Source: a bacterium (GTDB lineage: Bacteria; Patescibacteriota; Doudnabacteria; UBA920; VMFF01). From it: 55,458 nt of DNA. The position numbers were made by a program, and so were the translations under genes. Below are positions 26,687-42,778 of this stretch, one piece after another. Position 1 is the first letter of the stretch. Each line of letters starts with the position of its first letter. The stretch lies in NCBI GenBank assembly GCA_021811585.1, contig JAJZOG010000007.1, positions 1 to 55,458 on the forward strand. Direction: 5' to 3'. The notes beneath the pieces are model-generated. The model was not told where the DNA came from. It made no database searches and worked only from the letters and a program-made list of their open reading frames with translations.

Positions 26687-26694
26687 ATATATAG

Positions 26695-26870: not shown

Positions 26871-27155
26871 CCTATGTTGTATTGAATTATTATCAGAGCA
26901 TTGCGTGCGCATCCACACCGACGGACTTGTCCGCGAAAATAAAAACGCCATCAGCAGGGATGGTGTTTGTGGCGCCATTTTCCTGCTCGGGAAAATTTCG
27001 AAGTTTGGTATCTGGCTTGTCCCGATTTCTCGGGATTTACAGTTGCGGCACAGCGCCGGAATCGCACCGGCTTCCCAACTAGTTTTCAAATTTCTGTCTC
27101 AATCTTAGCGCGGACGTTTTTGAATGTCAAATTTTTCAGGAAACCGAAGGTTGCC

Positions 27156-27641
27156 CTAAAACATTGCTTTCAAATCCCGCTCATTATTAATGGCGTCCAC
27201 TGTGATAAGGCGCACAAAATATTTCTCGCTAAGTATCTTCAGTTCTTTGACAACTTCGTCCGGAAGCTTGTAGGGTGTTACCCAAATGCTGTTTTGCCAC
27301 CTTTTAAAGCCAAGTTGTTTTAGTTTGGAGCGCAGGTAATCGCGGATTTTCCGTTTTTCCTCAGGTATGTCGAAAATAATCATCTTCCATTTGCCGTCTT
27401 TTTCTTTTCTGAAAGTGGAAATTGTTGAAAGGCCTTTGGCTGAAAGCCGCAAGAATTCCATATCTTTATGGATATATCGTTCCAAATAGCTTCTTTTTTC
27501 GAGCTGATAGATCTGGGTGTAAATCTTTCGATATGATTCGCTCTTATAATACCGCTTTATAAAGGAGTAGGGGCTGATTTTCCCCTCATGTTTCACATTC
27601 TCAAGGAGCTTTATTGAATTTTCGCCTAAAATTTGTGACAT
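27156..27641 (-). CDS. PaaX-like regulator: winged-helix N-terminus plus a Cas2-like ferredoxin-fold C-terminal domain
   Basis: KWKMIIFDIPEEKRKIRDYLRSKLKQLGFKRWQNSIWVTP matches the Cas2/PaaX_C pattern. The gene is AT-rich and lies divergent from the giant gene. Confidence 0.55.
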   Translation of the reverse strand: MSQILGENSIKLLENVKHEGKISPYSFIKRYYKSESYRKIYTQIYQLEKRSYLERYIHKDMEFLRLSAKGLSTISTFRKEKDGKWKMIIFDIPEEKRKIRDYLRSKLKQLGFKRWQNSIWVTPYKLPDEVVKELKILSEKYFVRLITVDAINNERDLKAMF

Positions 27642-28133
27642 ATTTTGTTTTGGCTTAATTTACATGATTATAATATTACAATTGCCTTACGGTCGTCAAG
27701 TATATTTAGGTTTTTACACACAAGTTATTCACAATCGCATGCTTTCGAATTATTTTCGTAATACCGGGTTTAATACTCTACAAAATCGTCCGCCCTGCTT
27801 CCGTAATAGGGTTGTGAACTACCGTGGAGTTTTGGCCAATGCGAGATCTCCTGCGGCTAAAAGGTATTTTGATATTTATTATTACGAAAGTTATTTTTAA
27901 TATTTTTTTAATTGCGTGATTGAAATTCAAATTTTTGATTCGCAAGCACTTGAATTTCCGAAATAAAGCGCGTGTGAAACTAAATGTGCGCTTACAAAAC
28001 GCGGGATGCGTAAATTTTGCATTTTAATGCGTTAATTTTACCGATCTTTATGGCAAAAAATGAGTAAAAAAATAGTTTCAAAAATGTTTCTAAGTTTATG
28101 CACAATATATTGGCTGTTTTTGGCGGAAAATTA

Positions 28134-28163
28134 TTGACCGTCTCGGATGAAAACCGATATAAT
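28134..28163 (+). promoter_or_regulatory. Candidate promoter for the giant gene
   Basis: TTGACC (28134-28139), 18 nt, TATAAT (28158-28163). This would give a ~320-nt leader. Confidence 0.4.
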
Positions 28164-28492
28164 TTAAATAGATATCGGATAGCCGATATGCCAAAAAATT
28201 CCGAAACAAAAATACAATTTATGAAATAAAAAATTAGAAAATTTTTCCGCTAAAAGAAAATTTTTTCGTGTCAAAAAATAAAATTAACAGAATTTTGAGA
28301 GTGAAACTGAAAATCAGGAGCAAGAATTGGCGGCGAGTGTAAAGCAAATTAAGCGCGAAAATTTTCAATCGGGAAAAAAGCTAAATTTTGCAAAAAAATA
28401 ATTTAATTCACAAGACGCGCGTTCAAGATTAGCAATATTATTAAGGCAAAAGAAGCAAAATCTCGGATAAGCGATATAAAACCGGTGCAGCA

Positions 28493-31400
28493 ATGGCAGA
28501 TGAAAATAAAAATTTAAACAGCGATCCGATCTCTCTGGCAGAAGCGAGCAGGATTTCAGGGTACCATCAGGATTACCTGGGTTTTTTGGCGCGCACCGGA
28601 AAATTGGCTGCCAGCAAAATCGGGCGCAACTGGGTGACCACCAAGGAAGCGGTAGAAAATTTCATGAAAATGCCGGGCACTGATGCGGAAGAAAAAAACG
28701 CCGGCACTGTTGAAGATGAATCGGGAAACAAAATTCCAATCCACGTACAGCAACATTCGGCGGAACAATTGTCGATAATTGCACAGCTGGACAAGCTGCG
28801 CGGGAATGTGATTAGAGAAGTTGCCAAACAAGCTGCGCATGAGTCGCTTGCTGAGGCGGCTGCTGCAGCAGCATCGGCAACGGTAGCAGCAGCATCGGCA
28901 GCGGCATTGACGGCAACCTCGGCAGCAGCATCTGAAGCAAACAAAACTGGCGATGCGAGCAGCGGAAATAATTTATCTGCTGTGAAAGAAACAATCCTCC
29001 GGCTTGATGACAACCAGAAGCACGAAGATTTAAAAAACGAGATTCAAAAAAATCTTGAACAGGCGAAGGCATCGCTTTCAGAGCATGTTGAAAATGTTTT
29101 GAAACAGAACGGCCATTCGATGAATGTTGCAAGCGATGCAAACGGCTCGGGTATGAGCTCGGGTGCGGGCACTGGTTTGGGATCTGGTATGGGTTTGGGT
29201 GTGAGCTTGGGTGCGGACGCTGGCACCGCGGAAACGCACGGTACTGAGAAAGGCGCAAACTTTGCCCCAACCTTGCCTATCGCGCCGTCTGCAACATTGG
29301 CAGGAGCAGCAGTATCAACAGCAACATCTGCAGCATCAACATCTGCAGCAGGAGTTGCGGCAGCATCAACATCAACATCGGCAACATCAGGGGCACCGGC
29401 AGCAATATCATTAGCGGCAACAGCAACATCTGCACAAGCAGCGCAAAATGAAAAGAAAAATCAAAGCGCATTTGCAGCGGCAGCAGCGCCGGCTGCTTTT
29501 GCGGGCATTGATGCGGCATTGAACAAGCCGCAACTTAATTTGGCGAAGCTGTTTGGATCTTTCGCGTCAAAAATTGTTTTGCCAAAAAAGATTTGGGTAA
29601 CAGCTGCGGCTGCTTTGGCGCTGACAACAACCGGCACTATTGTTTATTTCCATGCTTTTGTGGATCGGCAAATAAGCGTGGTCTACAAACAAATTGCTGC
29701 AAATAATTTGAGCCAGAATCAGATGGCGCAAAATAATCAGGGCGCAAACGGCTCGGGTGCAAATGGCACAAACGGCTCTGGCCAAAATTCCGGAAACGCG
29801 AATGAAAAAAATTCCAGCGGTGCGGGCAGCGGTGCGGGCAGCGGTGCGGGCACTAGCACAGGCAACGGCGCAGGCAACGGCGCAGGTTCAGGCAACGGCG
29901 CGGGCATTGGTTCCAACCTTGCATACGGCTCGCGCACAATCATTGAAAAATTTTATATCCAGGGCACGCCTGGTCCGCAAGGGCAGCCCGGACCCCAAGG
30001 TCCTCCGGGGCCCCAAGGTCCGCAAGGAAATAATGGCACTTCTTCGCCGGGATCATATGCTCCCGGCTCCGGCATTATTTATTCGCCTGTTTTTAATCCG
30101 CCGCTTCCTTCTGTGACAGCGCCTTCGGCATTCGGTTCCACGGAACTTTCGGCGCAGGATTTAAACATCAGCAACAATACAAACCTGAACAATGTGACTG
30201 TCAGCGGCGCAACAACTTTCCAGGGCCTGGTGACTTTTAACAGCCAATCGTATTTGAGCGTGGTCGCGGACACTGCGCAACCGGCAATTTCCGTAACTCA
30301 AAACGGCACAGGCGATATTTTTGATCTTGCAAATTCCACCGGCCAGGTTTTGAACGTGGCAAACAACGGTGCGCAGACAATCACGGAAAATAATTCCAAT
30401 TCAACGCCGGCACTCACGGTGAACAATGTCGTGAGCGGCTCAACCGGAAGCGCGGCGGTTTTCACAAGCGCGGCAACGGATAACGCCAACCCGACCATTG
30501 AAGTTACGCAGGACGGCGCTGCGGCTGGGCTTGAAGTCCAGGGCAGCACGATTCTCGCGCAGACCTCCGCGCAGACAGGCGACATGCTCCAATTGCAAAA
30601 CACCGGCGGCAGCGTTTTAGTGCGCGAGGATAATCACGGCGATACGGAACAGCTCGGCATGATCAACAATCCTTACGGCGGCATTGGCTCGTATGAAAAT
30701 CTTTTGCAGTATTCGGAAAATTTTGCGAACTCGGCGTGGACAGCGCAGGCCGGCGTTTCGGCGCCAACGCAAACAGGCACTGCGCCGGACGGCCAGGCAG
30801 CGTCTTATGAAATTACGAACACAACCGCAGGCGCCGGCTTGTACCAGCAAACCACGGAAGCGGCTGCAAGCCAAACAGCAACTTTTTCCGTGTGGGCGCG
30901 ATCGGTTTCCGGAAGCCAGCATTTCCAAATCGGCATGCTTGAAGGCGCGAGCGGCTCTGCCGCAAACATTACGGCAACTTCAGGCGAGCCGGCCCCGTCA
31001 AACGCGAGCAACGCGGCGAGCGGCGTGCTTTCCGCAACCGCGACAACAACTTGGCAGAGGTTTGCCGTAACTTCAACTTTCAAATCTTCGGCAGTTGGAA
31101 ACCTTGCTGCATTTATTTTGCCTGGCGGCGCATCAACAGGGAGCATTGAGGTCTGGGGCGCGCAAATAGAAGAATCCGCTGTGCCGGGCGTTTACGTGCA
31201 GACAAATAACCAGACAATTGCGCAAGGATATGGCGCGGTTTCCGCCGGCCAGCCAAACGGCCCTTACAGCGAAGTTATCACTGTTGCGAAAACCGGCGCC
31301 GAGTTCAGCGATGTTGCAAAAGCGTATGCGTATGCGAAAACTTTAAGCCCTTCTGCCACAAACCAAATTTTGATCAAAATCCAGCCGGGAACTTACGCCG

Positions 31401-34400
31401 ACAACCTCACGCTGGACACTGATTTTATTTCCATCCTCGGAGCTGATAAAAACGAGACGGCAATTACAAGCTCTTCAACAACGCCGGCAATGGCAATTTC
31501 CGGAAACTTAACTGCAGCCACAATTTCAGGCCTCACAATTTCCAACACTTCCACAGGCGCGGGCGCAGATGCTTTGGACATAAGCGCCGGCAGCGCGCGC
31601 CTTTCGCAAAACATTATTGCCGACTCCGGCACCACAACTTCCAACGCAGTAAGCATTACCGGCGGCGCGCCGGCATTCGACGATAACGAAATTTCCGAAA
31701 GCTCTTCGGGCACGGCTGTCTCCGCATCTGCCGGAACATTTTCCAACAACACAATTTCCGCAACATCCGGAACAGCGCTTGCTTACACTGGCACAGGCAC
31801 GATATTAAATAATTTAATCTCCTCGGCAAGCAGCCAGGGAATTGCGGCAAGCACAGCTGCCAAATATCAGGATAACAATGTCAGCGCAGGCGGATATGCT
31901 GCGGCAATTTCAGCCGGCAGCCCTGTTTTCACAGGCGGCAGGTATGCAACAACAGCGGCATCCGGCGCAGCCATTTATGTTTCCGCAAACACCGCAACCC
32001 CGATTTTCTTAAACCTTGAAGCAGACGGCACTGGCACAGAATATTCCATTGATGCTGTTGCGGGCACGACAATTTCCGAAGCAAACCTTGCGCTTAACAA
32101 GGGAATAAATTATACGCATATCGGCGCAAACGATACGTATGTTGCCACTGACGCGCGCGTGCAAGTGCAAGGCAGCTCCGCAAACCCCGCGCTCTCCGTA
32201 ACCCAAACAGGCGCAGGCGATATTGCGGATTTGTTCCAGGGCGCAGACGGCCTGAAAATAGACAATCTCGGCCAAACCACTTTTACATCCGATTCCACGG
32301 CAACGAATCCGACAATAACAATCACCCAAGGCGCAACCGGCGTGGCTGCGCTTAAAGTAAACGGCAGCACAACCTTGAACGGAAACGTCTCCCTTGCTTC
32401 CACAAACCCGATAATAGACACAGCAGGCGCATCCTCAACGCTTGGCATCAACACCACGAACAACCGGCCTGTAACTTTTGGGACAGGCACTGTTACAATT
32501 CCGAATCTTGAGGTTACAAACAGCCAGACATCTGCCGGCACGTTTACAATGAATTCCAATGCCACAACCCAAAGCGTTTTTACAATAACGGCAAGCGACC
32601 TTACATCAGGCACAATGTTCAACGAAACGCTTACGGCAAATGCCGGCAACGGGCAAACAACCTCTGGACAGATAATGAACCTCACGGACGCAACAACCGC
32701 TGCCGGCGGATACACGGCATTGGCAATAAACGTAACTCCTGACGGCGGCACCGGCACCGGCAACAAATATTTGCTGTCATTGAACCCGGACACAAGCACA
32801 AGCGCAAATGAAGTTGTTTTTGATTCCAGCGGCGCGCTGCGTCCCACGACATCAGCATCGCAAAACACGAATTCAATAGGATCTACTTCGTATTATTTCC
32901 GCAACGGCTATTTTGATACTTTGACGGCAAACAATTTAAGCGGCACGGTTGTGACCGGCGCAACATCATCAACAACATGGACAATCGGCTCCACGCAAAC
33001 AGGCGATGTCAACGAGGCGCTTATTTTCCAGCGCAACTCCGGCAGCGGCAACGCGCTTTTGCAGTGGAACGCTTCAAACGGCACGCTTAACGACCAGCGC
33101 TATTTGAGCGCAAATTATCCGTTCAATGTAAATTACACTGTGGACGGCTCTTCCATCGGCGCAAATGCGGATTTGTTTTCCGGAATGCTTACGAACAATA
33201 CCACAAGCGGCACGCAGAATTTGCTTTCACTCACAAACACAGGCACAGGCACAACTGCAAATGGAATTTATATAAATAACACAGGCACAGGCACAACTGC
33301 AATTCAAATCGCAGGCACATGGGGCACAGGCATTCTCACAAACAACAATTCCATTAATGCAGGCACAGGTTCAATCACCAGCGGTTCAATTTCATCCGGC
33401 GCAATTACTTCCACAGGTGCACTCTCGGTTTTAACCACAACTTCTCCGCAGCTCACAGTAGGATACAGCACCGGAAATACTTGGACTTCCTCAACCACAT
33501 CCGCAGGAGCCACAACATTCACCTTTAACGGCACAGGATCATCCGCAACCTTCAAACCCGCAACCGACTCGGCATCAGCATTTAACTTTGAAACATCCGG
33601 CGGAACATCTGTGCTGAATGTAGATACTACTAACGGAAGAGTCGGCATCGGGACGAGCAGCCCGGGGAGGGTTCTCGATGTTGCGTCACATAATGCGGCC
33701 GATGAAACAGCTGGATTCTTTTATTCAACCACTGGTACTGGCGTGGATATATTAGGAGGGGTGGATGGTAGCCAGGTAAATCTGATTGGTACTACTAATG
33801 GCATTACCGAACCCAAGCTTCACCTCGGCTCTGGATGGACAAACCGCAATAATTCGGTTGGTCTTACTATTGATACATCTGGCAACGTCGGCATCGGAAC
33901 AACTTCTCCAACCGCAACCCTTGCCATCCAGCCCGCAGCAACATCAGCAGGAACACCGGCCACAACCGGTTCTGGCTTGCAATTGCTCGGCGCAACCTTC
34001 ACGGATAATGCCACAGCAGCATCGGGCACAGCAGCATCCTATGCCCAAGCATCCATATCACAACAAACCCTTGCAGCAACAAACACTGTCGTTACCACAA
34101 CAAATGCCTATGGCCTGAATATCCTTGGCCCTGTTACAGGCGGTACCAACGAAACCCTGACAAACTCAACTGCCCTAAACATTGCCTCAGCAGCACTTGC
34201 CAATACCACTAATGGCTATGGCCTTCAGGTAAATGCCCCTACCGGTGCAACTAATAACTATGCGGCGAGCTTTATGAATGGCAATGTCGGCATTGGAACA
34301 GTAGGACCTGGCAGTCGCCTTGTAGTTGTTGGTTCAACTTCTGACAACACTGCTAACGCTCTTGATGTGCAAAATTCAGGCAACACATCAATATTAAAAG

Positions 34401-37400
34401 TGCGAAATGATAGTTATGTAACAATTGTTGGTCAGCAGAAAACAATATATAATGGCCTAGCTTCGGAATTGGCAGCATCAACTGGGACTAATAATGTTTA
34501 TCAAAAAATAGATAATGGTACGGGGAATATTTATTTAGGTGTAGAGAATAGTGCGGGTGGTTCATTATTCACTAACGCTTCCGCATATTCCGGAGTCATA
34601 GGAACTGGCGCGAATGAGTCCCTGCATTTAGCGGCAAATAATTCTGTTGCTATGACAATTTTAGGTAGCGGCAACGTCGGAATCGGCACAACTTCTCCAA
34701 GCAGCGTATTGACTGTAACAGGAGCATCCGGCACAAGCGGAACAACAGGCACCGCTGCCACACAAGTATTGGCAATCACAGGAGGTGCCGGAGGAAACTC
34801 CAGCGCAGCAACAACAGCAGGAGGCGCAGGCGCAGCGGTTAATATAACTTCAGGAGCAGGCGGTAATTCCACAGGTGTGGCAGGAACAAACGGAGCAAAT
34901 ATCACTTTGCAAGGTGGTGCAGGCGGAACAGGTACAACCACAGGAAGCTATGGAAACATCTTACTTAACCCAACTGGTGGTGATGTGGGGATTGGCACAA
35001 CGAGCCCAACCTTTGGATTGGATGTTAATACCAGTGGCGATAATACAGGGGAAAGAATCTCATCGGGTAATGCGACAGAGTTACGTTTAGACACGACAAA
35101 TTCTTATGCGACCGCTCGAAATTACGCAATAGAAACAAACGACCTAGTGTTTGGAGATTTTAATATTATGACCAGCAACGCGTTGGGCGGTGACCCTGTT
35201 TCAGCCGGAACATCTCGGCTTTATATAAATCCTTCCGGCAACGTCGGCATCGGCACAACGAGTCCGGGTGGAAAGTTGGAAGTGAATGGCACATCACTCT
35301 TTGATTCAAATATGTCGTTTCCAATTAATGCTCCAAGCGCAGGTGGCACACAAAATATAATTAGTCAGGAAAATGTCCTACAGACCGGTGGATATTGGAA
35401 CATCCAGACAAGAGGATATGGAACGGGCAATATAGCGAGCTTTGCATTACAAACCAATAATACTAATGATTATGTGTTATTACAACCTGATGGAGGTGAC
35501 GTCGGCATCGGCACAACCTCCCCAAGCAGCGTATTGACTGTAACAGGAGCATCCGGCACAAGCGGAACAACAGGCACCGCTGCCACACAAGTATTGGCAA
35601 TCACAGGAGGCGCCGGAGGAAACTCCAGCGCAGCAACAACAGCAGGAGGCGCAGGCGCAGCGGTTAATATAACTTCAGGAGCAGGCGGCAATTCCACAGG
35701 TGTGGCAGGAACAAACGGAGCAAATATCACTTTGCAAGGTGGTGCAGGCGGAACAGGTACAACTACCGGGAATTATGGAAATATATTGTTAAATCCGAAT
35801 GGTGGTGATGTTGGGATTGGGATTACTACTCCGAGTAACATATTGTCTGTTGGTAATGATATTGGAGCTACGGTCAACCCTTCGAACACTATTGCTATCG
35901 GCAATACATCTGGTAATTCGACGCTAACAATTGGCCAGAGTAATACGAGCAGGGCAAGGGCTAGTTGGATATATAATGCGACATCCGGCAGTGCGTATGC
36001 TGTTTTTGGAGCGGTGGGGACTAATCCGCTCGATCTGCAGGATGAAGGTGGCAATGTTGGGATTGGCACAACCACACCATTGGCGCATTTAGATATAGCA
36101 GTAGGGTCTTCTAATGCCGATGGTATTTCCGTGCACGGCGGCGGTAATTCGCAATCAATATTAATCCAGCCAAATTCTTTGGTTGGCGCATTTATTGCGG
36201 GTGGCACTGCGGCTGATGGCACCAACAACGGGAATAGCGGCGATGCCGCTGGCCGCATAATTTTGCAAGCCAGCGCAAATGATGGCATGCAGTTCCAATA
36301 TTCCAACAGTACGATTGGCAACGCTACCAGAAGTTGGACAACGGGAATGGTATTGGGTACGGGCACTTATGCCGGCAACGTCGGAATCGGCACAACTTCT
36401 CCAAGCAGCGTATTGACTGTAACAGGAGCATCCGGCACAAGCGGAACAACAGGCACCGCTGCCACACAAGTATTGGCAATCACAGGAGGCGCCGGAGGAA
36501 ACTCCAGCGCAGCAACAACAGCAGGAGGCGCAGGCGCAGCGGTTAATATAACTTCAGGAGCAGGCGGCAATTCCACAGGTGTGGCAGGAACAAACGGAGC
36601 AAATATCACTTTGCAAGGTGGTGCAGGCGGAACAGGTACAACCACAGGAAGCTATGGAAACATCTTACTTAACCCAACTGGTGGTGATGTGGGGATTGGC
36701 ACAACTTCGCCCGCTGCGACTTTGGATGTCCAAAAATCCGCGGATTCGTATACGACTTTTGATGCTATAATCGGTCGCATTAGCACGGGAAAAAATTTCA
36801 CTCATTTAAGGTTGCGTGCAGGCAATGGGGGTTATACTTCAGACACGGATATCGCGGCTGCCTATCAAGGCGACACGTTTATTGGCAATAACTTTTATAA
36901 TGATGGAAACCGTGGTGCTAAATTTGATTCCTCAATGCCGGCTTGGTGGATTCGCATGGGTGGAAATGATGATTATTTCGATTTAAGCCGGACGACCACA
37001 GATTACTTAACCGGTGATGCCACTTTATTGCACATTACAAATGCCGGGGATGTGGGTATCGGCACAGCAACACCAACTAATGAGTTAGAAGTTGGCAGCG
37101 GCCAATTCGCTGTTGATACGATGGGCGCAAATCAAATTGCTTTTAATTCTGCCGGCTCATGGGGTGTGATTACTAATAATGGAAATGATGTTTGGTCACT
37201 CGGAACAGCAGCGACACCTTCATCAACAGCTACTTCGGTTTTAACTTGGAAGTTGGATGGCGATGTTGGTATTGGGACGACAAACCCTTCATATCCATTA
37301 GATATAGAGACATCAACAACCGCTTATGGCATATATGATCTTAATACATATAATCAGGCAGGAAATACTTATGCAATTCAAGGCCAAGCTGAAAATACTA

Positions 37401-40054
37401 ATGCCAGTGGTATAGCGATTGGGGTTTCTGGGGTTGCCAATAGTACGGGAAGTGTAAATGTAGGTTTGAATGGTTATGCAAGCGGCGGTACTAATAATGT
37501 ACAGTTGTGGTTAGGTTCGCTGCCATCATCTGTGAGCGCGAGTTATGGGGTTTATCAGAGCACGACCGCGCAAAATTATTTTGGCGGCAGCGTTGGTATA
37601 GGTACAGCTTCGCCCAACACCAAACTCGATGTTAATGGCACCATTTCCCAAACCGCAGCAACCCAAACCTCCGGCACCTTGGCAAACGCGCCTTCAACAG
37701 GCACGTGCACTGGCCAGGCAAACAGTTCAACCCAGGCGGTGATTGAATATGCCGGCTCTGCCGGTAGTACTATGATTTTTTATAATTCCACTCAAAGCAA
37801 GCACGCGAGAATTACTAGCGTAGCTACGTGTGTTGACGGGTCTTCAAACGACTGGGTTATTATGGCCTTAACAGATTCCATCTCCGGGCAGGCGGCTGGC
37901 AATGCTTTTACGCTTTATGTGCCTGCCGGCGATATTGGCACATCAACATCCGGCTTTGCGAATAATTTGTATGCAATTAACGGGCACTTTGTGGCTTCCA
38001 CGGTTTCCGGCGGCTTTGACGTGGCTGAGGAATATCAATCAAATGATGCGACAATTTCTTCGGGAATGCTGGTTTCAGTTGATCCGAATAATGAAAAATT
38101 CGTGCAGAAATCTTTTACGGATTATGATCCGGCTTTGCTTGGCGTTGTGTCCACTGATCCTGGCGTTACTTTGGGCGACGAGAATCACGGCATTTGGGAA
38201 AAAGTTGCTTTGAAAGGCCGCGTGCCTGTTTTGGTGACAGATGAAAACGGCGTTGTTAAGGAAGGCGATTGGCTCACTTCTTCGCCGACAATGCCGGGAT
38301 ATGCCATGAAAGCCGTTCATGGCGGCGAAGTTATTGGCCAGGCGATTTCGGATTTTGATGTTAAGGATGAATTAACATCAATTATTAACGGAATTACCGT
38401 GCACACAGGCAAGGTTGTGGTTTTCGTGAATTTGGGTTATGAAAACGTGAATAATACTTTTGTAATGGGAGATGATCCAACTTTGGCGCAGCAGGTTGCG
38501 CAAGGAACAACAACCTCGGGCGCTTCCGCATCAGGCAGCACTCTTGCCGCGCCGTCAAATTCCATGACATATATTATCCGGCAGGCAGCGCAGACATGCA
38601 CGGCAGGTACAACTTCAACTGCGACTTCAGGCACTTCAACATCTGGCGGCATTTCAACCAGCAGTGGCACCTCAACTACAACCAGCGGCACAACAACCAC
38701 ATCCTCATCCGGGACCACCGGCAGCGGCACTTCAACATCCTCATCCGGGACCACTGGCAGCGGCACTTCAACATCCTCAGGCACAACTTGCACCAATACT
38801 GTTGCCGACATTTTGCAGTTGCAATCCGGAAATGCTTTGCGCTTTATGGTTGCATCCAGCGGCGCAACAACAATTAATGCTCAGGTTGCGGATTCTTCGG
38901 CGCAAATTTTCGCCGTGAACGGCAATGGCAGCGCGGCATTCACAATCACCGCAAGCGGAAATGCTTTTGTCGGCGGCACGCTCGTGGTGAAAAAAGATAT
39001 CGCCTCGCTCGGCGCGGTTTTGGGCGCAACTTCGGTTTTGGCGCGAAATGTGGATGGCACCGCGCTTGTGCAAGGCGATGTTGTGCAGCTCGCAGCAGCT
39101 GGCGCGCAAGCAACGCCTGTTGTGGGTTCAAATCCGATACTTTCCGTGCAGCTCGCGGTTGCGGCAGCAAACCCAAGCGGCACAAGCCCGGTTGTTGTTG
39201 GAATTGTTGACCGCGATCTCTCCGCATTTGATATCCCGGGCGCGCCGGCAAGCACGTCCAGCGATCCAACCCAAGTGCCAAGTGGCGATTATCTGAACGT
39301 TATCACAGGCGGAACATTCTCGGTTGTGAATGTGGATGCCACAAGCGCGCCGGTTGCAGTAGGTGATAGGATGACATTGGATGCAAATTATCCAGGATAT
39401 TTGCGGCCAATCGGAACGGCCGATGTCGGAGCGCCGGTGGTTGGCATTGCTTTGGATAATATTAGCAGCGGCTTGGGCAAGGCAAGGATATTTATAACTT
39501 TGAATGATGGCGGCGGGTCTGGCGGCGGTGGAGGCGGAACCAGCGGTGGAACTAGCGGTGGAGGAACCAGCGGCACGACGACCAGCGGCAGCGCCACAAC
39601 AACCAGCAGCGGAACCACATCTACATCCGGCACGAGTTCAGGCACAACATCAACATCCACAGGTACGACTTCCACAGGTACCACATCAACTTCTTCCGGC
39701 ACATCTTCAACCTCAAGCGGTACAACATCAACCGGCACATCCTCAACTCTCACAACAACCGATTCCACTTCCGGCCAAAGCACCCTAACAACTACATCCT
39801 CACCCACAACCAGCAGCTCATCAACCGATACCGCGACCACTTCATCCGGTACGACTTCAACTTCCACAGGTTCAACGTCAACTTCATCCGGCACGACTTC
39901 CAGCTCGCCAACGTCAACATCAACCGGTACAACCTCCACATCAACCGGTACAACCTCAACATCAACCGGTACAACCTCAACTTCATCCGGTACATCCACG
40001 AGCGGCACATCCACAGGCACAACCTCAACTTCCACCACAACTTCAGGCACATAA
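28493..40054 (+). CDS. Giant (3,853 aa) membrane-anchored surface protein with phage-tail-fibre-like modules
   Basis: One uninterrupted ORF with these modules:
- N-terminal excisionase/MerR-like HTH (ISLAEASRISGYHQDYLGFLARTGKLAASKIGRNWVTTKEAVENF).
- TM helix (IWVTAAAALALTTTGTIVYF).
- Collagen-like GTPGPQGQPGPQGPPGPQGPQGNNG (29963-30037).
- Tail-fibre-type jelly-roll module (YSENFANSAWT...TAPDGQAASYEI...IEVWGAQIEES).
- Parallel beta-helix repeats.
- More than 10 GNVGIGTTSP motifs.
- Peptidase_G2/IMC-like FDVAEEYQS...GDWLTSS segment.
- Ser/Thr-rich C-terminal tail. Confidence 0.9.
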   Translation: MADENKNLNSDPISLAEASRISGYHQDYLGFLARTGKLAASKIGRNWVTTKEAVENFMKMPGTDAEEKNAGTVEDESGNKIPIHVQQHSAEQLSIIAQLDKLRGNVIREVAKQAAHESLAEAAAAAASATVAAASAAALTATSAAASEANKTGDASSGNNLSAVKETILRLDDNQKHEDLKNEIQKNLEQAKASLSEHVENVLKQNGHSMNVASDANGSGMSSGAGTGLGSGMGLGVSLGADAGTAETHGTEKGANFAPTLPIAPSATLAGAAVSTATSAASTSAAGVAAASTSTSATSGAPAAISLAATATSAQAAQNEKKNQSAFAAAAAPAAFAGIDAALNKPQLNLAKLFGSFASKIVLPKKIWVTAAAALALTTTGTIVYFHAFVDRQISVVYKQIAANNLSQNQMAQNNQGANGSGANGTNGSGQNSGNANEKNSSGAGSGAGSGAGTSTGNGAGNGAGSGNGAGIGSNLAYGSRTIIEKFYIQGTPGPQGQPGPQGPPGPQGPQGNNGTSSPGSYAPGSGIIYSPVFNPPLPSVTAPSAFGSTELSAQDLNISNNTNLNNVTVSGATTFQGLVTFNSQSYLSVVADTAQPAISVTQNGTGDIFDLANSTGQVLNVANNGAQTITENNSNSTPALTVNNVVSGSTGSAAVFTSAATDNANPTIEVTQDGAAAGLEVQGSTILAQTSAQTGDMLQLQNTGGSVLVREDNHGDTEQLGMINNPYGGIGSYENLLQYSENFANSAWTAQAGVSAPTQTGTAPDGQAASYEITNTTAGAGLYQQTTEAAASQTATFSVWARSVSGSQHFQIGMLEGASGSAANITATSGEPAPSNASNAASGVLSATATTTWQRFAVTSTFKSSAVGNLAAFILPGGASTGSIEVWGAQIEESAVPGVYVQTNNQTIAQGYGAVSAGQPNGPYSEVITVAKTGAEFSDVAKAYAYAKTLSPSATNQILIKIQPGTYADNLTLDTDFISILGADKNETAITSSSTTPAMAISGNLTAATISGLTISNTSTGAGADALDISAGSARLSQNIIADSGTTTSNAVSITGGAPAFDDNEISESSSGTAVSASAGTFSNNTISATSGTALAYTGTGTILNNLISSASSQGIAASTAAKYQDNNVSAGGYAAAISAGSPVFTGGRYATTAASGAAIYVSANTATPIFLNLEADGTGTEYSIDAVAGTTISEANLALNKGINYTHIGANDTYVATDARVQVQGSSANPALSVTQTGAGDIADLFQGADGLKIDNLGQTTFTSDSTATNPTITITQGATGVAALKVNGSTTLNGNVSLASTNPIIDTAGASSTLGINTTNNRPVTFGTGTVTIPNLEVTNSQTSAGTFTMNSNATTQSVFTITASDLTSGTMFNETLTANAGNGQTTSGQIMNLTDATTAAGGYTALAINVTPDGGTGTGNKYLLSLNPDTSTSANEVVFDSSGALRPTTSASQNTNSIGSTSYYFRNGYFDTLTANNLSGTVVTGATSSTTWTIGSTQTGDVNEALIFQRNSGSGNALLQWNASNGTLNDQRYLSANYPFNVNYTVDGSSIGANADLFSGMLTNNTTSGTQNLLSLTNTGTGTTANGIYINNTGTGTTAIQIAGTWGTGILTNNNSINAGTGSITSGSISSGAITSTGALSVLTTTSPQLTVGYSTGNTWTSSTTSAGATTFTFNGTGSSATFKPATDSASAFNFETSGGTSVLNVDTTNGRVGIGTSSPGRVLDVASHNAADETAGFFYSTTGTGVDILGGVDGSQVNLIGTTNGITEPKLHLGSGWTNRNNSVGLTIDTSGNVGIGTTSPTATLAIQPAATSAGTPATTGSGLQLLGATFTDNATAASGTAASYAQASISQQTLAATNTVVTTTNAYGLNILGPVTGGTNETLTNSTALNIASAALANTTNGYGLQVNAPTGATNNYAASFMNGNVGIGTVGPGSRLVVVGSTSDNTANALDVQNSGNTSILKVRNDSYVTIVGQQKTIYNGLASELAASTGTNNVYQKIDNGTGNIYLGVENSAGGSLFTNASAYSGVIGTGANESLHLAANNSVAMTILGSGNVGIGTTSPSSVLTVTGASGTSGTTGTAATQVLAITGGAGGNSSAATTAGGAGAAVNITSGAGGNSTGVAGTNGANITLQGGAGGTGTTTGSYGNILLNPTGGDVGIGTTSPTFGLDVNTSGDNTGERISSGNATELRLDTTNSYATARNYAIETNDLVFGDFNIMTSNALGGDPVSAGTSRLYINPSGNVGIGTTSPGGKLEVNGTSLFDSNMSFPINAPSAGGTQNIISQENVLQTGGYWNIQTRGYGTGNIASFALQTNNTNDYVLLQPDGGDVGIGTTSPSSVLTVTGASGTSGTTGTAATQVLAITGGAGGNSSAATTAGGAGAAVNITSGAGGNSTGVAGTNGANITLQGGAGGTGTTTGNYGNILLNPNGGDVGIGITTPSNILSVGNDIGATVNPSNTIAIGNTSGNSTLTIGQSNTSRARASWIYNATSGSAYAVFGAVGTNPLDLQDEGGNVGIGTTTPLAHLDIAVGSSNADGISVHGGGNSQSILIQPNSLVGAFIAGGTAADGTNNGNSGDAAGRIILQASANDGMQFQYSNSTIGNATRSWTTGMVLGTGTYAGNVGIGTTSPSSVLTVTGASGTSGTTGTAATQVLAITGGAGGNSSAATTAGGAGAAVNITSGAGGNSTGVAGTNGANITLQGGAGGTGTTTGSYGNILLNPTGGDVGIGTTSPAATLDVQKSADSYTTFDAIIGRISTGKNFTHLRLRAGNGGYTSDTDIAAAYQGDTFIGNNFYNDGNRGAKFDSSMPAWWIRMGGNDDYFDLSRTTTDYLTGDATLLHITNAGDVGIGTATPTNELEVGSGQFAVDTMGANQIAFNSAGSWGVITNNGNDVWSLGTAATPSSTATSVLTWKLDGDVGIGTTNPSYPLDIETSTTAYGIYDLNTYNQAGNTYAIQGQAENTNASGIAIGVSGVANSTGSVNVGLNGYASGGTNNVQLWLGSLPSSVSASYGVYQSTTAQNYFGGSVGIGTASPNTKLDVNGTISQTAATQTSGTLANAPSTGTCTGQANSSTQAVIEYAGSAGSTMIFYNSTQSKHARITSVATCVDGSSNDWVIMALTDSISGQAAGNAFTLYVPAGDIGTSTSGFANNLYAINGHFVASTVSGGFDVAEEYQSNDATISSGMLVSVDPNNEKFVQKSFTDYDPALLGVVSTDPGVTLGDENHGIWEKVALKGRVPVLVTDENGVVKEGDWLTSSPTMPGYAMKAVHGGEVIGQAISDFDVKDELTSIINGITVHTGKVVVFVNLGYENVNNTFVMGDDPTLAQQVAQGTTTSGASASGSTLAAPSNSMTYIIRQAAQTCTAGTTSTATSGTSTSGGISTSSGTSTTTSGTTTTSSSGTTGSGTSTSSSGTTGSGTSTSSGTTCTNTVADILQLQSGNALRFMVASSGATTINAQVADSSAQIFAVNGNGSAAFTITASGNAFVGGTLVVKKDIASLGAVLGATSVLARNVDGTALVQGDVVQLAAAGAQATPVVGSNPILSVQLAVAAANPSGTSPVVVGIVDRDLSAFDIPGAPASTSSDPTQVPSGDYLNVITGGTFSVVNVDATSAPVAVGDRMTLDANYPGYLRPIGTADVGAPVVGIALDNISSGLGKARIFITLNDGGGSGGGGGGTSGGTSGGGTSGTTTSGSATTTSSGTTSTSGTSSGTTSTSTGTTSTGTTSTSSGTSSTSSGTTSTGTSSTLTTTDSTSGQSTLTTTSSPTTSSSSTDTATTSSGTTSTSTGSTSTSSGTTSSSPTSTSTGTTSTSTGTTSTSTGTTSTSSGTSTSGTSTGTTSTSTTTSGT
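34670..35001 (+). repeat. Intragenic repeat R1 (332 bp)
   Basis: Differs from 36374-36705 at 2 positions (ggaggTgcc vs ggaggCgcc; ggcggTaat vs ggcggCaat). Confidence 0.9.
35498..35764 (+). repeat. Intragenic repeat R2 (about 267 bp highly similar, then diverging)
   Basis: It shares the R3 variants. Protein-level similarity continues (GNYGNILLNPNGGDVGIG). Confidence 0.85.
36374..36705 (+). repeat. Intragenic repeat R3 (332 bp)
   Basis: See R1. Confidence 0.9.
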
Positions 40055-40264
40055 TCTTAAATGCAAATTAAATTTTTTCGAATTTCATGTGTATAACTTA
40101 GTGGCAAAAAGCGTAATTTTCCGGTATAATTCGAGTATAAATTACCGTCTCAATATCCATGGAATTTAGGAAATAAAAAATGAAGAATGCGAAATAAATA
40201 TAGCGGAAATATATAGAGCGCGAAATAAAGCACGGAATAAATACAAATCGCGAAATAAATACAA

Positions 40265-41101
40265 ATGCAGTTTAAAATAAAAATTTCAAAAGTAATGATT
40301 TTTGCCGCGGCGTTTTATGCCTTGCAAGGGCTTTTGAATTTTGGCGCGCAAGCGAATTTTTCGAAAATGTTTTCCGCGGCCGCGCGTTTTCCCGCGCCGA
40401 ATTTTTCTGCTTCCAAAATTTCTTTGGAACAAAACGGCCTAAATTTTTACAGGTCAAATGGCTCAAATTTTCCGGCTTTGACAATGAATCAAAACGCGTT
40501 TTTTGGAATAAGCCAAGGCATGGCCCTGGCAATAAACCAAAATACCGGCCAAAGAGCCGTGGAATTAAAAGTGGTCCAGCCCTCAAGTTTACAAATTGCG
40601 CCGGATAGTTTTGCGCTTGATGAAATTCAAGGTCACAATACTTACAGCGATTCACATTTGCAGGACTCCTCGTATTTTGGCTTTTCGTATGCGGGCTCGA
40701 ATTATAAGCCATCCGCATTGATGCCTGCGAGTGCAATTGCCATTTCAAATTCATCTCCAAATCCAGCTTCAAATACAGCGTTAAATTCAGCGGACGAACA
40801 AATCCAATCATCGCGCCAGCAAGATATTTTTGTGATTAATTTGCAGGACAACAGGGAAATTTTTATTTTTGATTCCCAGGCAGATCAGGAGCAGATGGAT
40901 GCCTATGCATTCGGGCAAAGCCCATCAAGCCAGCAGAGCGCTTTTGCAGGCGGATTTAACTTCAGATATGCACATGAGGAAAACTTCTATTCAAGTGATG
41001 CTTTGGCAGAAAAAATATCAGGCAATTATGCGTTTGCCTCGGCAAACCATTTGCCCGCATCCGAGGTTAAACTTTCATTAATTCAAATTTGGCGGTGTTG
41101 A
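40265..41101 (+). CDS. Hypothetical secreted protein
   Basis: 278-aa ORF with a signal-like MIFAAAFYALQGLLNFGAQA. The alternative start is at 40295. Confidence 0.55.
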   Translation: MQFKIKISKVMIFAAAFYALQGLLNFGAQANFSKMFSAAARFPAPNFSASKISLEQNGLNFYRSNGSNFPALTMNQNAFFGISQGMALAINQNTGQRAVELKVVQPSSLQIAPDSFALDEIQGHNTYSDSHLQDSSYFGFSYAGSNYKPSALMPASAIAISNSSPNPASNTALNSADEQIQSSRQQDIFVINLQDNREIFIFDSQADQEQMDAYAFGQSPSSQQSAFAGGFNFRYAHEENFYSSDALAEKISGNYAFASANHLPASEVKLSLIQIWRC

Positions 41102-41189
41102 TAAGGTGTGTAATCGGCTTGATTAACTTTTTTAATCTTTAACAAAAGATTAATTTCGCAACGAATAATTAATTTAAATTTAATCTCAT

Positions 41190-41909
41190 ATGCAACCAAC
41201 ATATAATCCGGCTCAACAGCACGCGCCTTCACAGCCGCAACAGCAGCAGCCGGTTCAACCTCAATATTCATCTTCAGTTCCTGCAGGATCCGGAAAATCC
41301 TCCAAACTTCCTTGGATTCTTCTCGTGGTAGTGGTCCTGATTGTTGCCGGCGTTTTGGCATATCTTTTCCGCGGCAAATTTACAACCCAAAACGGGCCAA
41401 AACTTTCCGGTTATCAGGCGGTGTTTTTGACCAACGGCCAGGTTTATTTCGGACACCTTTCGCGCGCGGGCAATCAATACGCGGTGCTCACCGACATTTT
41501 CTATTTGCAAGTTAATCAGCCCTTGCAAACAGGACAAGCCGGCGCAAATGGCCAGGCATCTGCCGCGCAACAACAGGCGCAAGCAGCCAATACATCTTCA
41601 GCCGCATCCGCGTCTTCAGGTTCGCAGCAGCAGCCCCAGCTTTCGCTCGTGAAATTGGGAAACGAATTGCACGGTCCGGCTGATTTGATGCATATCAATC
41701 GCGATCAAATTCTTTTTTATGAGGATTTGAAAGCTGACGGCAAAGTTGCCCAGGCGATTGATGCTTATTATCAAAACCAAAAAAATCCGCAGCAAAGCTC
41801 GGCTCCTGCTTCCGATTCAGGCGCGGGCGCGCAGGGTTCTGTTGATCAAACTCAGCAAACCGGCGGCGCGGCTCCTGTTTCTGGCACAACAGCACCTGCC
41901 AAGAAATAA
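41190..41909 (+). CDS. Gln-rich single-pass membrane protein, hypothetical
   Basis: Q/P-rich N-terminus, TM WILLVVVVLIVAGVLAYLF, and a conserved-looking YQAVFLTNGQVYFGHL segment. Confidence 0.6.
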   Translation: MQPTYNPAQQHAPSQPQQQQPVQPQYSSSVPAGSGKSSKLPWILLVVVVLIVAGVLAYLFRGKFTTQNGPKLSGYQAVFLTNGQVYFGHLSRAGNQYAVLTDIFYLQVNQPLQTGQAGANGQASAAQQQAQAANTSSAASASSGSQQQPQLSLVKLGNELHGPADLMHINRDQILFYEDLKADGKVAQAIDAYYQNQKNPQQSSAPASDSGAGAQGSVDQTQQTGGAAPVSGTTAPAKK

Positions 41910-41996
41910 GCGCGCTTCGCTTGAAAGAAAAAAGCGTTCTATAAATAAGAGCGCTTGAAAGACAAAGAGCGTTTAAAAGTAAAAAGCGCTTGAAAG

Positions 41997-42034: not shown

Positions 42035-42082
42035 CTCCCATTTCCTCATGCGCCTTTGCCTGCGCATTTTAAGATCCAAAAA

Positions 42083-42717: not shown

Positions 42718-42778
42718 GTTTATTAAAATTTAATTAAGAATTTATTAAGCTACCCTGTGTACCGGCCTACCATGTGTA

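What the first reader, a model, noticed from the sequence alone, without database searches (positions are those of the whole stretch)
28493..40054. 3,853-aa mosaic surface protein built from phage tail-fibre/tailspike-like modules
A single 11.6-kb ORF makes up about 21% of the window. Its modules, in order:
- a cytoplasmic HTH;
- one TM helix;
- a short collagen-like G-X-Y run;
- a jelly-roll module with the tail-fibre signature (YSENF..W....TAPDG...IEVWGAQIEES);
- parallel beta-helix repeats;
- more than 10 GNVGIGTTSP units, as in tail-fibre/IMC-containing proteins;
- a Peptidase_G2/IMC-like FDVAEEY segment;
- two Ser/Thr-rich tracts.

For an episymbiont, this is a prime candidate host-attachment or host-recognition organelle, assembled from phage receptor-binding parts.
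Basis: partly seen in the sequence, partly recalled or inferred. Interest (0 to 1): 0.75.

Follow-up and report, generated by a model that had tools for sequence, protein, structure and literature searches.

The report
Giant phage-fibre-like surface protein of Patescibacteria
This 3,853-residue gene is real and encodes a membrane-anchored, probably trimeric surface fibre built from modules shared with phage tail fibres; it belongs to a very large, unannotated family in ultrasmall Patescibacteria and is a good but untested candidate for how these cells grip their hosts.

Summary
The ORF (28493-40054, +, 3,853 aa) is uninterrupted. Three other public assemblies match both halves at 100% identity, but all break in three near-identical 300-nt internal repeats, so only the repeat copy number is unverified.

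- HTH_17-type HTH (aa 14-59)
- one TM helix (367-389)
- 9 G-X-Y triplets (491-517)
- CBM4/22-like beta-sandwich (735-905)
- NosD-like parallel beta-helix (~960-1215)
- 14 VGIGTxxPxxxL units (1715-3050), matching the capping loops of Bdellovibrio MAT fibres (PDB 8OND)
- a Peptidase_G2-like intramolecular-chaperone domain (3154-3325), whose D3176-V-A-E3179 aligns with the phi29 gp12 cleavage site
- two Ser/Thr tracts

The G2-like domain defines a family of more than 21,000 cluster representatives. Genome hits are nearly all Patescibacteria, and it also sits at the extreme C-terminus of many phage fibre proteins.

The locus is chromosomal, not a prophage. A PaaX-like gene, the giant gene, a conserved 239-aa membrane protein and L20/IF3 recur together across Patescibacteria lineages.

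Best reading: an N-in/C-out trimeric adhesin fibre, analogous to Bdellovibrio MAT proteins, with a G2-type rather than S74-type chaperone and an unusual cytoplasmic HTH anchor. The host-attachment function is inferred, not shown.

The parts
28493..40054 (+). Giant ORF, 3,853 aa, encoding the whole fibre protein
   Evidence: Other assemblies are 100% identical on both sides of the internal repeats.
28532..28669 (+). N-terminal helix-turn-helix of the HTH_17 / MerR-excisionase type (aa 14-59), predicted cytoplasmic
   Evidence: Pfam HTH_17 20.1-20.8 bits, below the cut-off. Four of five orthologous N-termini hit HTH_17, best E 9.9e-6. Orthologues L003, L005, L012 and P0071 match at E 1e-14 to 1e-20. 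Analogous giants P0064 and P0076 carry two MerR HTH domains at 75.9 bits.
28670..29590 (+). Ala/Ser/Gly-rich low-complexity linker (aa 60-366), predicted cytoplasmic
   Evidence: Composition. Orthologues have linkers of about 70-250 aa here, and the L005 linker looks coiled-coil-like by eye.
29591..29659 (+). Single transmembrane helix (aa 367-389), preceded by KLFGSF...LPKK; N-in/C-out signal anchor
   Evidence: Hydropathy 1.47. Orthologues have a conserved K[LI]Y.SF motif plus a TM of hydropathy 2.0-2.3. The Lys cluster lies on the N-terminal side.
29963..30043 (+). Collagen-like run of 9 G-X-Y triplets (aa 491-517)
   Evidence: Pfam Collagen 19.3 bits, sub-threshold. Orthologues carry G-X-Y runs in the same post-TM position.
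30695..31207 (+). CBM4/9/22-like beta-sandwich ('jelly-roll'), aa 735-905, with the motifs SE.F.N..W, APDG, WQRF and WGAQ.E
   Evidence: Homologues: L080 at 1e-24, P0069 (two copies) and P0001, which carries PF02018. phrog_34853 at 1.3e-5. Foldseek matches CBM4 1gui, CBM22 and the Pa193/E217 tail fibres. Model pLDDT in this part is 60-80.
31370..32137 (+). Right-handed parallel beta-helix (aa ~960-1215)
   Evidence: Pfam NosD 21.6 bits against a cut-off of 23.6, E 1.6e-4. Model pLDDT is 70-85 here. Top Foldseek hits are the GH87 alpha-1,3-glucanase beta-helix, E 5.8e-6.
33635..37642 (+). Shaft of 14 units carrying G-x-V-G-I-G-T-x-x-P-x-x-x-L capping-loop motifs (aa 1715-3050)
   Evidence: PHROG tail-fibre families 18345 and 9942 at E 1e-10. 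PDB 8OND, the Bdellovibrio Bd2133 MAT fibre, at E 6.9e-4 with the motifs aligned. The motif is defined in PMC10769870.
34669..36672 (+). Three near-identical 300-nt copies (34669-34968, 35494-35793, 36373-36672; 94-99% identical) that encode Gly-rich inserts; this is where other assemblies break
   Evidence: Mismatches show no adenine-specific pattern, so this is not a DGR target.
37952..38467 (+). Peptidase_G2-like intramolecular-chaperone domain (aa 3154-3325); predicted scissile bond F3175|D3176
   Evidence: The family has 21,161 representatives. Members P0166, P0206 and P0252 pass the Pfam Peptidase_G2 cut-off. The family profile scores 25.0 bits against the phi29 gp12 C-terminus, versus at most 9.5 bits for 2,000 shuffles. 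The AF2 model has pLDDT 85.4. BFVD hits include 'Preneck appendage protein' at E 3e-9.
38018..38029 (+). D3176-V-A-E3179, aligned with gp12 D692-F-A-E695 immediately after the gp12 cleavage site
   Evidence: D, A and E are each at least 90% conserved over 245 domain copies. Most viral homologues begin to align exactly at this Asp.
38561..38836 (+). Ser/Thr-rich tract 1 (aa 3357-3448)
38930..39487 (+). Possible degenerate second copy of the G2-like domain (aa ~3480-3665), without a D-x-A-E motif
   Evidence: Only a weak partial match, aa 3612-3659 at conditional E 0.006, and not detected by a profile built from second copies. 113 of the 152 best relatives have two tandem copies.
39509..40051 (+). 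Ser/Thr-rich tract 2 (aa 3673-3853), running to the C-terminus; no sortase or other anchor motif seen
41190..41909 (+). Conserved downstream partner: a 239-aa single-pass membrane protein of unknown family
   Evidence: It follows the giant gene on the same strand in 13 Patescibacteria loci, E 1e-20 to 1e-45. No Pfam, NCBIfam or PDB match.
27156..27641 (-). Divergently transcribed PaaX-like regulator (PaaX_M / Cas2-like domain), separated from the giant gene by an 850-bp AT-rich spacer
   Evidence: Pfam PaaX_M at 1e-20. Found in the loci of 4 relatives and upstream of the giant gene in the same-genome assembly L001. Spacer sequence.

Best explanation
The gene encodes a type-II (N-in/C-out) membrane-anchored, most likely homotrimeric, surface fibre of a patescibacterium.

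Proposed layout, from the membrane outwards:
- The first ~366 residues, an HTH_17-type helix-turn-helix plus a low-complexity linker, stay in the cytoplasm.
- One TM helix anchors the chain.
- The remaining ~3,460 residues project outwards.
- A short collagen-like triple helix sits next to the membrane.
- A CBM4/9/22-like beta-sandwich and a parallel beta-helix follow. These are glycan-binding or glycan-cutting modules.
- Next comes a long shaft of 14 triple-beta-helix-type units of the kind solved in Bdellovibrio MAT fibres.
- At the distal end is a Peptidase_G2-like intramolecular chaperone.

By analogy with phi29 gp12, this last domain would nucleate and proof-read trimer folding from the C-terminal end. 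It may then cut itself off at F3175|D3176, using D3176 and E3179, and so release the last 678 residues.

The mature fibre would bind surface glycans of the host bacterium, in the way phage receptor-binding proteins and Bdellovibrio MAT adhesins do.

Shown here: the ORF, the modules and their homologies, the family size and taxonomy, and the conserved chromosomal neighbourhood.
Inferred: topology, trimer state, self-cleavage and host binding.
For: - The ORF is intact and reproduced in other assemblies.
- The N-terminal architecture (HTH, conserved juxtamembrane motif, TM, G-X-Y run) recurs in orthologues from Doudnabacteria, Saccharibacteria and other Patescibacteria. Other giants of the family carry other HTH types in front of a TM.
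- The shaft motifs align with the crystallised Bd2133 fibre. They fit the MAT capping-loop consensus, and MAT proteins are surface-displayed trimers that bind prey glycans (PMC10769870).
- The C-terminal domain has a high-confidence model. Its best structural matches are phage proteins, including pre-neck appendage proteins.
- Family members pass the Pfam Peptidase_G2 cut-off.
- The family profile aligns D-V-A-E with gp12 D692-F-A-E695 at 25 bits, against at most 9.5 bits for 2,000 shuffles.
- D, A and E are at least 90% conserved across 245 domain copies.
- In viral contigs the domain sits at the extreme C-terminus (median 10 residues left), with a YADLAE motif.
- The gp12 C-terminal domain is an auto-chaperone that is cleaved off after folding (PMC3357383; PMC4690869).
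- CBM-like and beta-helix modules are supported.
- Chromosomal synteny is conserved across Patescibacteria.
Against: - No direct Pfam or NCBIfam hit above threshold exists for any module of this protein itself.
- The jelly-roll/beta-helix model has low confidence, mean pLDDT 59.
- PDB Foldseek places the G2-like model nearest to capsid decoration (beta-tulip) proteins and not to gp12. The domain could therefore be a stable trimeric knob rather than a released chaperone.
- Unlike in phages, 528 residues follow the domain here, and most relatives have two tandem copies. That is not what a simple cleave-and-discard chaperone predicts.
- From my own knowledge, gp12 release is reported to involve ATP, which is absent outside the cell.
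- The TM helix is only moderately hydrophobic.
- There are no expression, localisation or binding data.
- The source organism's own taxonomy is inferred from relatives only.
Confidence: 0.6

Rival explanations
1. The fibre is mainly a contact sensor. It would be a bitopic one-component regulator in which binding or tension on the extracellular fibre changes the state of the cytoplasmic HTH, or releases it, and so switches transcription (ToxR/CadC-like, or RsgI-like with proteolysis). This could coexist with adhesion.
For: - A DNA-binding-type HTH is fused before the TM in this subfamily.
- Different HTH types (MerR x2, transposase-type) sit in front of a TM in other giants of the family, which suggests selection for a cytoplasmic HTH.
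- An 850-bp AT-rich upstream spacer could hold operators.
Against: - Most family members have an ordinary signal peptide or anchor and no HTH.
- No DNA-binding test has been done, and there is no site-1/site-2 protease evidence.
- The HTH scores below the Pfam cut-off in this protein.
- HTH domains in bitopic proteins can serve protein-protein contacts instead. From my own knowledge, RodZ binds MreB through its HTH.
Confidence: 0.15
2. It is a structural envelope or S-layer-like coat protein, or a glycocalyx scaffold with O-glycosylated Ser/Thr tracts. In that case it would have no specific role in host recognition.
For: - Very large size, low-complexity Ser/Thr tails, only 4 Cys and a repetitive shaft.
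- A conserved core-genome location next to translation genes suggests a housekeeping role.
Against: - The module set (CBM-like sandwich, beta-helix, MAT-type shaft, phage-type chaperone) is that of receptor-binding fibres.
- No S-layer or SLH-type domains were found.
- Sequence divergence between orthologues is high, about 50% identity in the best-conserved domain, and the module content differs between relatives, as expected for recognition proteins.
Confidence: 0.15
3. It is a prophage or phage-remnant tail fibre, or a chimeric ORF created by mis-assembly.
For: - Phage-like modules.
- A type IV coupling protein gene lies 5.6 kb upstream.
- Short-read assemblies break inside the gene.
Against: - There are no phage structural, packaging or integrase genes around it. 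The neighbours are ClpB-like, PaaX-like, L20, L35, IF3, tmRNA, SmpB and ArgS.
- The same neighbourhood recurs in distant Patescibacteria.
- The N-terminal TM anchor does not fit a virion protein.
- Both halves are 100% identical in three other assemblies, and the repeat periods keep the frame.
Confidence: 0.03

Closest known systems
Bdellovibrio bacteriovorus MAT (mosaic adhesive trimer) fibre superfamily, e.g. Bd2133 (PDB 8OND) and Bd3182 (Caulton et al. 2024, PMC10769870)
   Same: - Long phage-like fibre on the surface of a bacterium that lives on other bacteria.
- Shaft of beta-helix units with the VG(I)[GN]-x-x-x-P-x-x-x-L capping loop, with direct sequence alignment to Bd2133.
- Mosaic tips, with a C-terminal chaperone/protease in many members.
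- A glycan-binding role has been shown for one MAT.
   Different: - MATs are about 600-1,100 aa, with a signal peptide followed by a conserved ~130-aa beta-rich N-terminal domain. This protein is 3,853 aa with a cytoplasmic HTH and a TM anchor.
- The MAT chaperone is S74 (SDxxxK). Here it is G2-like (D-x-A-E).
- This protein adds a collagen-like run, a CBM-like sandwich, a single-chain beta-helix and Ser/Thr tails.
- MATs come from a diderm predator, whereas this is from Patescibacteria. No Patescibacteria are mentioned in the paper's held supplements.
Bacillus phage phi29 gp12 pre-neck appendage (tailspike); MEROPS/Pfam Peptidase_G2 (PF11962)
   Same: - A beta-helix-containing fibre with a C-terminal beta-rich auto-chaperone.
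- D-x-A-E immediately after the cleavage site aligns with D3176-E3179.
- Family members pass the Pfam cut-off.
- BFVD 'preneck appendage' models match at E about 3e-9.
   Different: - gp12 is an 854-aa virion protein and its chaperone is the last domain. Here 528 more residues follow.
- The match covers only about positions 21-103 of the 228-position Pfam model.
- The protein itself gives no Pfam hit.
- PDB Foldseek did not list a gp12 entry among its best 50 matches.
S74 intramolecular-chaperone fibres (K1F endosialidase, T5 pb1) and MyRF
   Same: Same logic: a C-terminal self-cleaving trimerisation chaperone at the end of a triple beta-helix shaft with the same capping-loop motif.
   Different: There is no SDxxxK motif and no Peptidase_S74 hit in this protein. 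Only one distant relative (P0214) combines the G2-like domain with S74.
Phage capsid decoration / cement proteins with the beta-tulip fold (Borrelia phage BB1 8PKH, Pam3 8HDT, T1 9KZJ; DUF2190)
   Same: They are the best PDB structural matches of the G2-like domain model, E 4e-4 and TM 0.4-0.48. From my own knowledge, proteins of this class are usually trimeric.
   Different: TM scores are low, sequence identity is 17-20%, and there is no D-x-A-E motif or fibre context. This is a fold-level resemblance only.
Bitopic proteins with a cytoplasmic N-terminal HTH (RodZ; ToxR/CadC) - from my own knowledge, not tested here
   Same: HTH, then a single TM, then an extracytoplasmic domain.
   Different: Different HTH classes, and extracytoplasmic parts one to two orders of magnitude smaller. 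No homology was tested.

Membership tests
Peptidase_G2 (PF11962; phi29 gp12-type IMC) | Scores above the Pfam gathering cut-off (25 bits) | tested here: not met
   The protein itself gives no hit at E<=1, either whole or as the segment aa 3100-3340. Close family members do pass: P0166 27.1, P0206 27.1 and P0252 26.0 bits, covering profile positions 21-99 of 228.
Peptidase_G2 (PF11962; phi29 gp12-type IMC) | Asp at P1' and Glu three residues later at the self-cleavage site (gp12 S691|D692...E695; the residue roles are from my own knowledge of Xiang et al. 2009 and MEROPS G2) | tested here: met
   The family profile A2 aligns D-V-A-E (3176-3179) with gp12 D692-F-A-E695 at 25.0 bits, against a maximum of 9.5 bits for 2,000 shuffles. 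D, A and E are at least 90% conserved.
Peptidase_G2 (PF11962; phi29 gp12-type IMC) | Same fold as the gp12 C-terminal domain | tested here: inconclusive
   BFVD models named 'Preneck appendage protein' match at E 3e-9 and 2.5e-8 with rmsd 1.9-2.6 A. However, no gp12 entry is among the 50 best PDB matches listed, and the best PDB hits are beta-tulip decoration proteins.
Peptidase_G2 (PF11962; phi29 gp12-type IMC) | Autoproteolytic release after trimer folding | not testable with these tools
   This needs expression of the domain with D3176 and E3179 mutants.
MAT superfamily (Bdellovibrio) | Beta-helix shaft units with the capping-loop motif V-G-G/N-pi-x-x-P-x-x-x-L | tested here: met
   There are 14 motif copies. 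phmmer hits Bd2133 (8OND) at E 6.9e-4 with the motifs in register.
MAT superfamily (Bdellovibrio) | Signal peptide followed by the conserved ~130-aa beta-rich N-terminal domain found in all 21 HD100 MATs | tested here: not met
   The N-terminus here is an HTH, a 300-aa linker and a TM. The MAT N-terminal domain sequence itself was not available for comparison.
MAT superfamily (Bdellovibrio) | Homotrimeric fibre displayed on the cell surface | not testable with these tools
   This is inferred only, from the G-X-Y run, the triple-beta-helix-type units and the chaperone domain.
Peptidase_S74 IMC fibres | C-terminal S74 domain with an SDxxxK motif | tested here: not met
   No PF13884 hit.
HTH_17 / MerR-excisionase-type HTH | Scores above the Pfam gathering cut-off (27 bits) | tested here: not met
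   20.1-20.8 bits, E 5e-4 to 8e-4. Four of five orthologues hit the same family, best E 9.9e-6. PHROG excisionase families match at E 2e-3. A profile search of the PDB found no hit.
Prophage tail fibre | Located in a block of phage structural, packaging and integration genes | tested here: not met
   The neighbours are housekeeping genes and the neighbourhood is conserved across Patescibacteria.

The most novel reading that the evidence does not exclude
Patescibacteria carry a core-genome 'fibre cassette': a PaaX-like regulator, a giant MAT-like fibre with a G2-type self-processing chaperone, and a conserved 239-aa membrane partner. In one subfamily the fibre is wired directly to a cytoplasmic DNA-binding domain. 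Host contact at the tip would then be transmitted through a single polypeptide to gene expression or to the cell's internal organisation. That would make it a one-protein host-contact sensor and adhesin.
Probability: 0.15. Interest if true: 0.85.

Novelty: new variant of a known kind. Interest (0 to 1): 0.62.

Why it matters
How ultrasmall Patescibacteria recognise and hold their hosts is largely unknown beyond type IV pili and a few adhesins (PMC10633639, PMC12206443).

- This locus points to a very large family, with more than 21,000 cluster representatives at 50% identity. It consists of giant phage-fibre-like proteins that current Pfam and NCBIfam models leave unannotated.
- The family has a testable self-cleavage site and a conserved unknown partner gene.
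- Its chromosomal position is conserved, which makes orthologues easy to find in cultivable strains.
- It extends the Bdellovibrio MAT concept, in which bacteria that live on bacteria use phage receptor-binding hardware, to a different lineage, with a different chaperone class and a different anchor.
- The HTH-TM anchor raises a directly testable question about coupling surface contact to the cytoplasm.

Tried and rejected
- A whole-protein homology search timed out. An exact-sequence look-up of the giant protein found nothing, probably because the other assemblies truncate it.
- Word-indexed searches with single segments gave only 1-3 hits. The exhaustive profile search was needed.
- The first genome scan, with the single domain, found no relative.
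- Direct PDB sequence searches found nothing significant with the G2-like segment, the jelly-roll/beta-helix segment, the HTH profile or the p239 profile.
- tblastn of the shaft segment against GenBank phages found nothing.
- DGR targeting of the internal repeats was rejected, because the mismatches are not adenine-specific.
- A second G2-like copy in this protein could not be confirmed.
- The source taxonomy could not be read from cluster names, and no paper mentions the assembly accession. The LOOT RNA gave no usable taxonomic statement.
- I could not retrieve Xiang et al. 2009. The catalytic roles of gp12 D692 and E695 therefore rest on my own knowledge.
Full report
**1. The observation**

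The window contains one uninterrupted ORF at 28493..40054 on the + strand: 3,853 codons with an ATG start. That is 20.8% of the window. G+C rises to 0.50-0.54 inside it, against 0.40-0.48 around it.

The same genome has been assembled at least three more times.
- An NCBI contig (GCA_027365855.1, locus L001) is 100% identical to window 25731-35422.
- An ENA contig (L084) is 100% identical to window 36502-51101, and a Logan contig (L085) to 36676-43949.
- All three stop inside three near-identical 300-nt copies at 34669, 35494 and 36373.

The only part of the ORF that rests on the window's assembly alone is therefore about 35.4-36.5 kb and the number of repeat units. The repeat periods, 825 and 879 nt, are multiples of three, so a different copy number would not break the frame. 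The mismatches between copies are not adenine-specific, so this is not a diversity-generating retroelement target.

**2. The modules**

Whole-protein scans are almost blank.

- **(a) HTH, aa 14-59.** Pfam HTH_17 scores 20-21 bits, below the cut-off of 27. The same N-terminus (ISLxEASxITGYHQDYLGxLxRxGxLxxQKIGRNWVTT) heads giant ORFs in a Doudnabacteria MAG (L003), a Patescibacteria MAG (L005), a Saccharibacteria MAG (L012) and P0071, at E 1e-14 to 1e-20. Four of the five sequences hit HTH_17, best E 9.9e-6.
- **(b) TM helix, aa 367-389.** It is weakly hydrophobic here. In all four orthologues a conserved K[LI]Y.SF motif is followed by a strong TM helix. The Lys cluster on the N-terminal side predicts an N-in orientation.
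- **(c) Collagen-like run, aa 491-517.** There are nine G-X-Y triplets. Orthologues have a G-X-Y run at the same post-TM position.
- **(d) Beta-sandwich, aa 735-905.** This conserved ~170-aa module also occurs in L080, twice in P0069, and in P0001, which carries Pfam CBM_4_9. A model of modest confidence matches CBM4, CBM22 and CBM11, and also the tail fibres of Pseudomonas phages Pa193 and E217.
- **(e) Beta-helix, aa ~960-1215.** NosD scores 21.6 bits against a cut-off of 23.6. This region of the model has pLDDT 70-85, and the best Foldseek hits are the GH87 beta-helix.
- **(f) Shaft, aa 1715-3050.** There are fourteen G-x-V-G-I-G-T-x-x-P-x-x-x-L units, 71-133 residues apart. PHROG tail-fibre families hit at E 1e-10. 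The only significant PDB sequence match is Bd2133 of Bdellovibrio bacteriovorus (8OND), with the motifs in register.
- **(g) G2-like domain, aa 3154-3325.** See section 3.
- **(h) Ser/Thr tracts.** These lie at aa 3357-3448 and 3673-3853.

**3. The C-terminal domain**

- **Family size.** A profile of this domain, searched exhaustively against 1.84 billion cluster representatives, finds 21,161 proteins at E<=1e-3 and 13,250 at E<=1e-10. Most of the best 150 are 1,000-5,000 aa. Among the 152 best, 113 carry two tandem copies.
- **Consensus.** It reads g..D-l-A-E-x-Y ... GDVV.xD ... GvVST.PG ... VALaGRVPVKV..ENG.I..GD.LTsS..PG.AMKA, with D, A and E at least 90% conserved.
- **Link to Peptidase_G2.** Three short members pass the Pfam Peptidase_G2 gathering cut-off. 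A Campylobacter phage tail fibre that matches the window's domain has a sub-threshold G2 hit at the same place.
- **Alignment to gp12.** The family profile aligns to the C-terminal domain of phi29 gp12 at 25.0 bits, against a maximum of 9.5 bits for 2,000 shuffles. This places D3176-V-A-E3179 on gp12 D692-F-A-E695. [quoted passage not shown] The catalytic roles of D692 and E695 are from my own knowledge.
- **Fold.** The AF2 model has pLDDT 85.4. In BFVD its best matches are phage proteins at E 6e-10 to 1e-7 and rmsd 2-3 A, two of them named pre-neck appendage protein. In the PDB the best matches are beta-tulip capsid decoration proteins at lower TM scores.
- **Position in phages.** In IMG/VR at least 330 viral stretches encode the domain. 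Most alignments start exactly at the Asp. In the 48 ORFs re-scored at E<=1e-5 the domain sits at the extreme C-terminus, with a median of 10 residues left, and carries a YADLAE motif.

The domain is therefore a divergent G2-type intramolecular chaperone shared by phages and Patescibacteria. This protein itself does not reach the Pfam cut-off, and whether it cleaves is untested. In this protein 528 residues follow the domain. A second copy could not be confirmed.

**4. Context**

The neighbours are chromosomal:
- a histidine kinase and response regulator
- a type IV coupling protein
- a ClpB-like ATPase
- a cobalamin riboswitch in front of an acidic repeat protein
- a PaaX-like regulator, divergent from the giant gene across an 850-bp AT-rich spacer
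- two small secreted or membrane proteins downstream
- L20, L35, IF3, tmRNA, a trypsin-like protease, SmpB and ArgS

No phage genes are present.

A genome scan with the domain profile found 204 relatives. The 79 distinct loci kept come almost entirely from Patescibacteria MAGs, or from MAGs carrying placeholder names.

In 13 of these loci the 239-aa membrane protein (41190-41909) follows the giant gene on the same strand. The PaaX-like gene recurs in 4 loci and L20/IF3 in 5. The 239-aa protein has no Pfam, NCBIfam or PDB match.

Most relatives have a plain signal peptide followed by an I-N-[FY]-Q-G-[KR] motif rather than an HTH. Several unrelated HTH types nevertheless occur in front of a TM in other giants of the family. 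Examples are P0064 and P0076 with two MerR domains at 75.9 bits, and P0049 with a transposase-type HTH.

**5. Mechanism**

The most economical reading is a trimeric fibre anchored by its N-terminus and pointing its C-terminus outwards. That is the same polarity as a phage fibre on a virion.

- The G-X-Y run and the G2-type chaperone would set the trimer register from the two ends.
- The CBM-like sandwich and the beta-helix would supply glycan binding or depolymerase activity.
- The shaft is of the kind solved for Bdellovibrio MAT proteins. Those are surface-displayed trimers with interchangeable tips, and one of them binds prey glycans.
- Self-cleavage at F3175|D3176 would shed the last 678 residues. 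Alternatively, the domain and the possibly O-glycosylated Ser/Thr tails stay attached as the tip.

I give about 0.6 to the overall model and about even odds to cleavage.

The role of the HTH is open. It could be a regulatory output, a tether to DNA, or a protein-protein contact as in RodZ (from my own knowledge).

**6. Comparison and novelty**

- The closest described bacterial system is the MAT superfamily. The shaft motif is shared, but the defining N-terminal domain and the S74 chaperone are not.
- The closest described chaperone is Peptidase_G2 of phi29 gp12.
- My library searches for these terms together with Patescibacteria, Saccharibacteria or CPR found no description of this family. 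These searches are not exhaustive.

I therefore rate it a new variant of a known kind.

Noticed in passing
window 23108-23294 and 50991-51177: A ~187-bp intergenic element with long terminal inverted repeats (GGGTCCAACCCAAACCCCCAACC... / ...GGTTGGGGTATTGGGTTGGACCC) is present as two direct copies 27.9 kb apart. The NCBI contig of GCA_027365855.1 joins the two copies, making a pseudo-circular 27-kb contig, and the ENA contig ends in one. It looks MITE-like and is a source of assembly ambiguity.
   Followed up: partly
window 41190-41909 (+): A 239-aa single-pass membrane protein with a conserved core (YQAVFLTNGQVYFGKL ... LSLVKLGxELHGPxDxMxIN ... ILFxExLK) lies directly downstream of the giant fibre gene in 13 Patescibacteria loci. 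It has no Pfam, NCBIfam or PDB match, and it may be an assembly or anchoring partner.
   Followed up: partly
window 25520-26686 (-) and 26986-27122 (-): A cobalamin riboswitch lies upstream of an acidic 388-aa protein with no Pfam match. That gene contains a 48-bp tandem repeat (about 25683-25846, unit HESPSAAIHEFHSAAV), and the other NCBI assembly has one unit fewer (372 aa).
   Followed up: no
window 27156-27641 (-) and spacer 27642-28492: A PaaX_M / Cas2-like-domain regulator is divergent from the giant gene across an 850-bp AT-rich spacer, and it recurs in the loci of 4 relatives. It is a possible regulator of the fibre gene. No obvious Shine-Dalgarno sequence precedes the giant ORF's ATG.
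   Followed up: no
window 8605-8728 (+): A LOOT RNA (RF03000) match at 58.5 bits, above the gathering score. I did not establish its function or what it means for taxonomy.
   Followed up: no
window 30158-30532 and 32078-32449 (aa 556-680 and 1196-1319): An internal duplication of a ~125-aa module (…P-A-[IL]-S-V-T-Q-x-G-x-G-D-I…), 26% identical at E 1e-10, flanks the CBM-like and beta-helix block. Its fold is unknown.
   Followed up: no
window 21447-22871 (-): A type IV secretion coupling protein (TrwB/TraG-like) gene lies next to a two-component system, with no other conjugation genes seen nearby. This may relate to the Patescibacteria T4SS reported as essential for epibiotic growth in PMC10633639.
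   Followed up: no
L003 916-11716 (Doudnabacteria MAG, closest relative): The orthologous giant gene is split into at least three ORFs (451, 2,102 and 853 aa). This looks like frameshift errors in that assembly rather than real gene decay.
   Followed up: no
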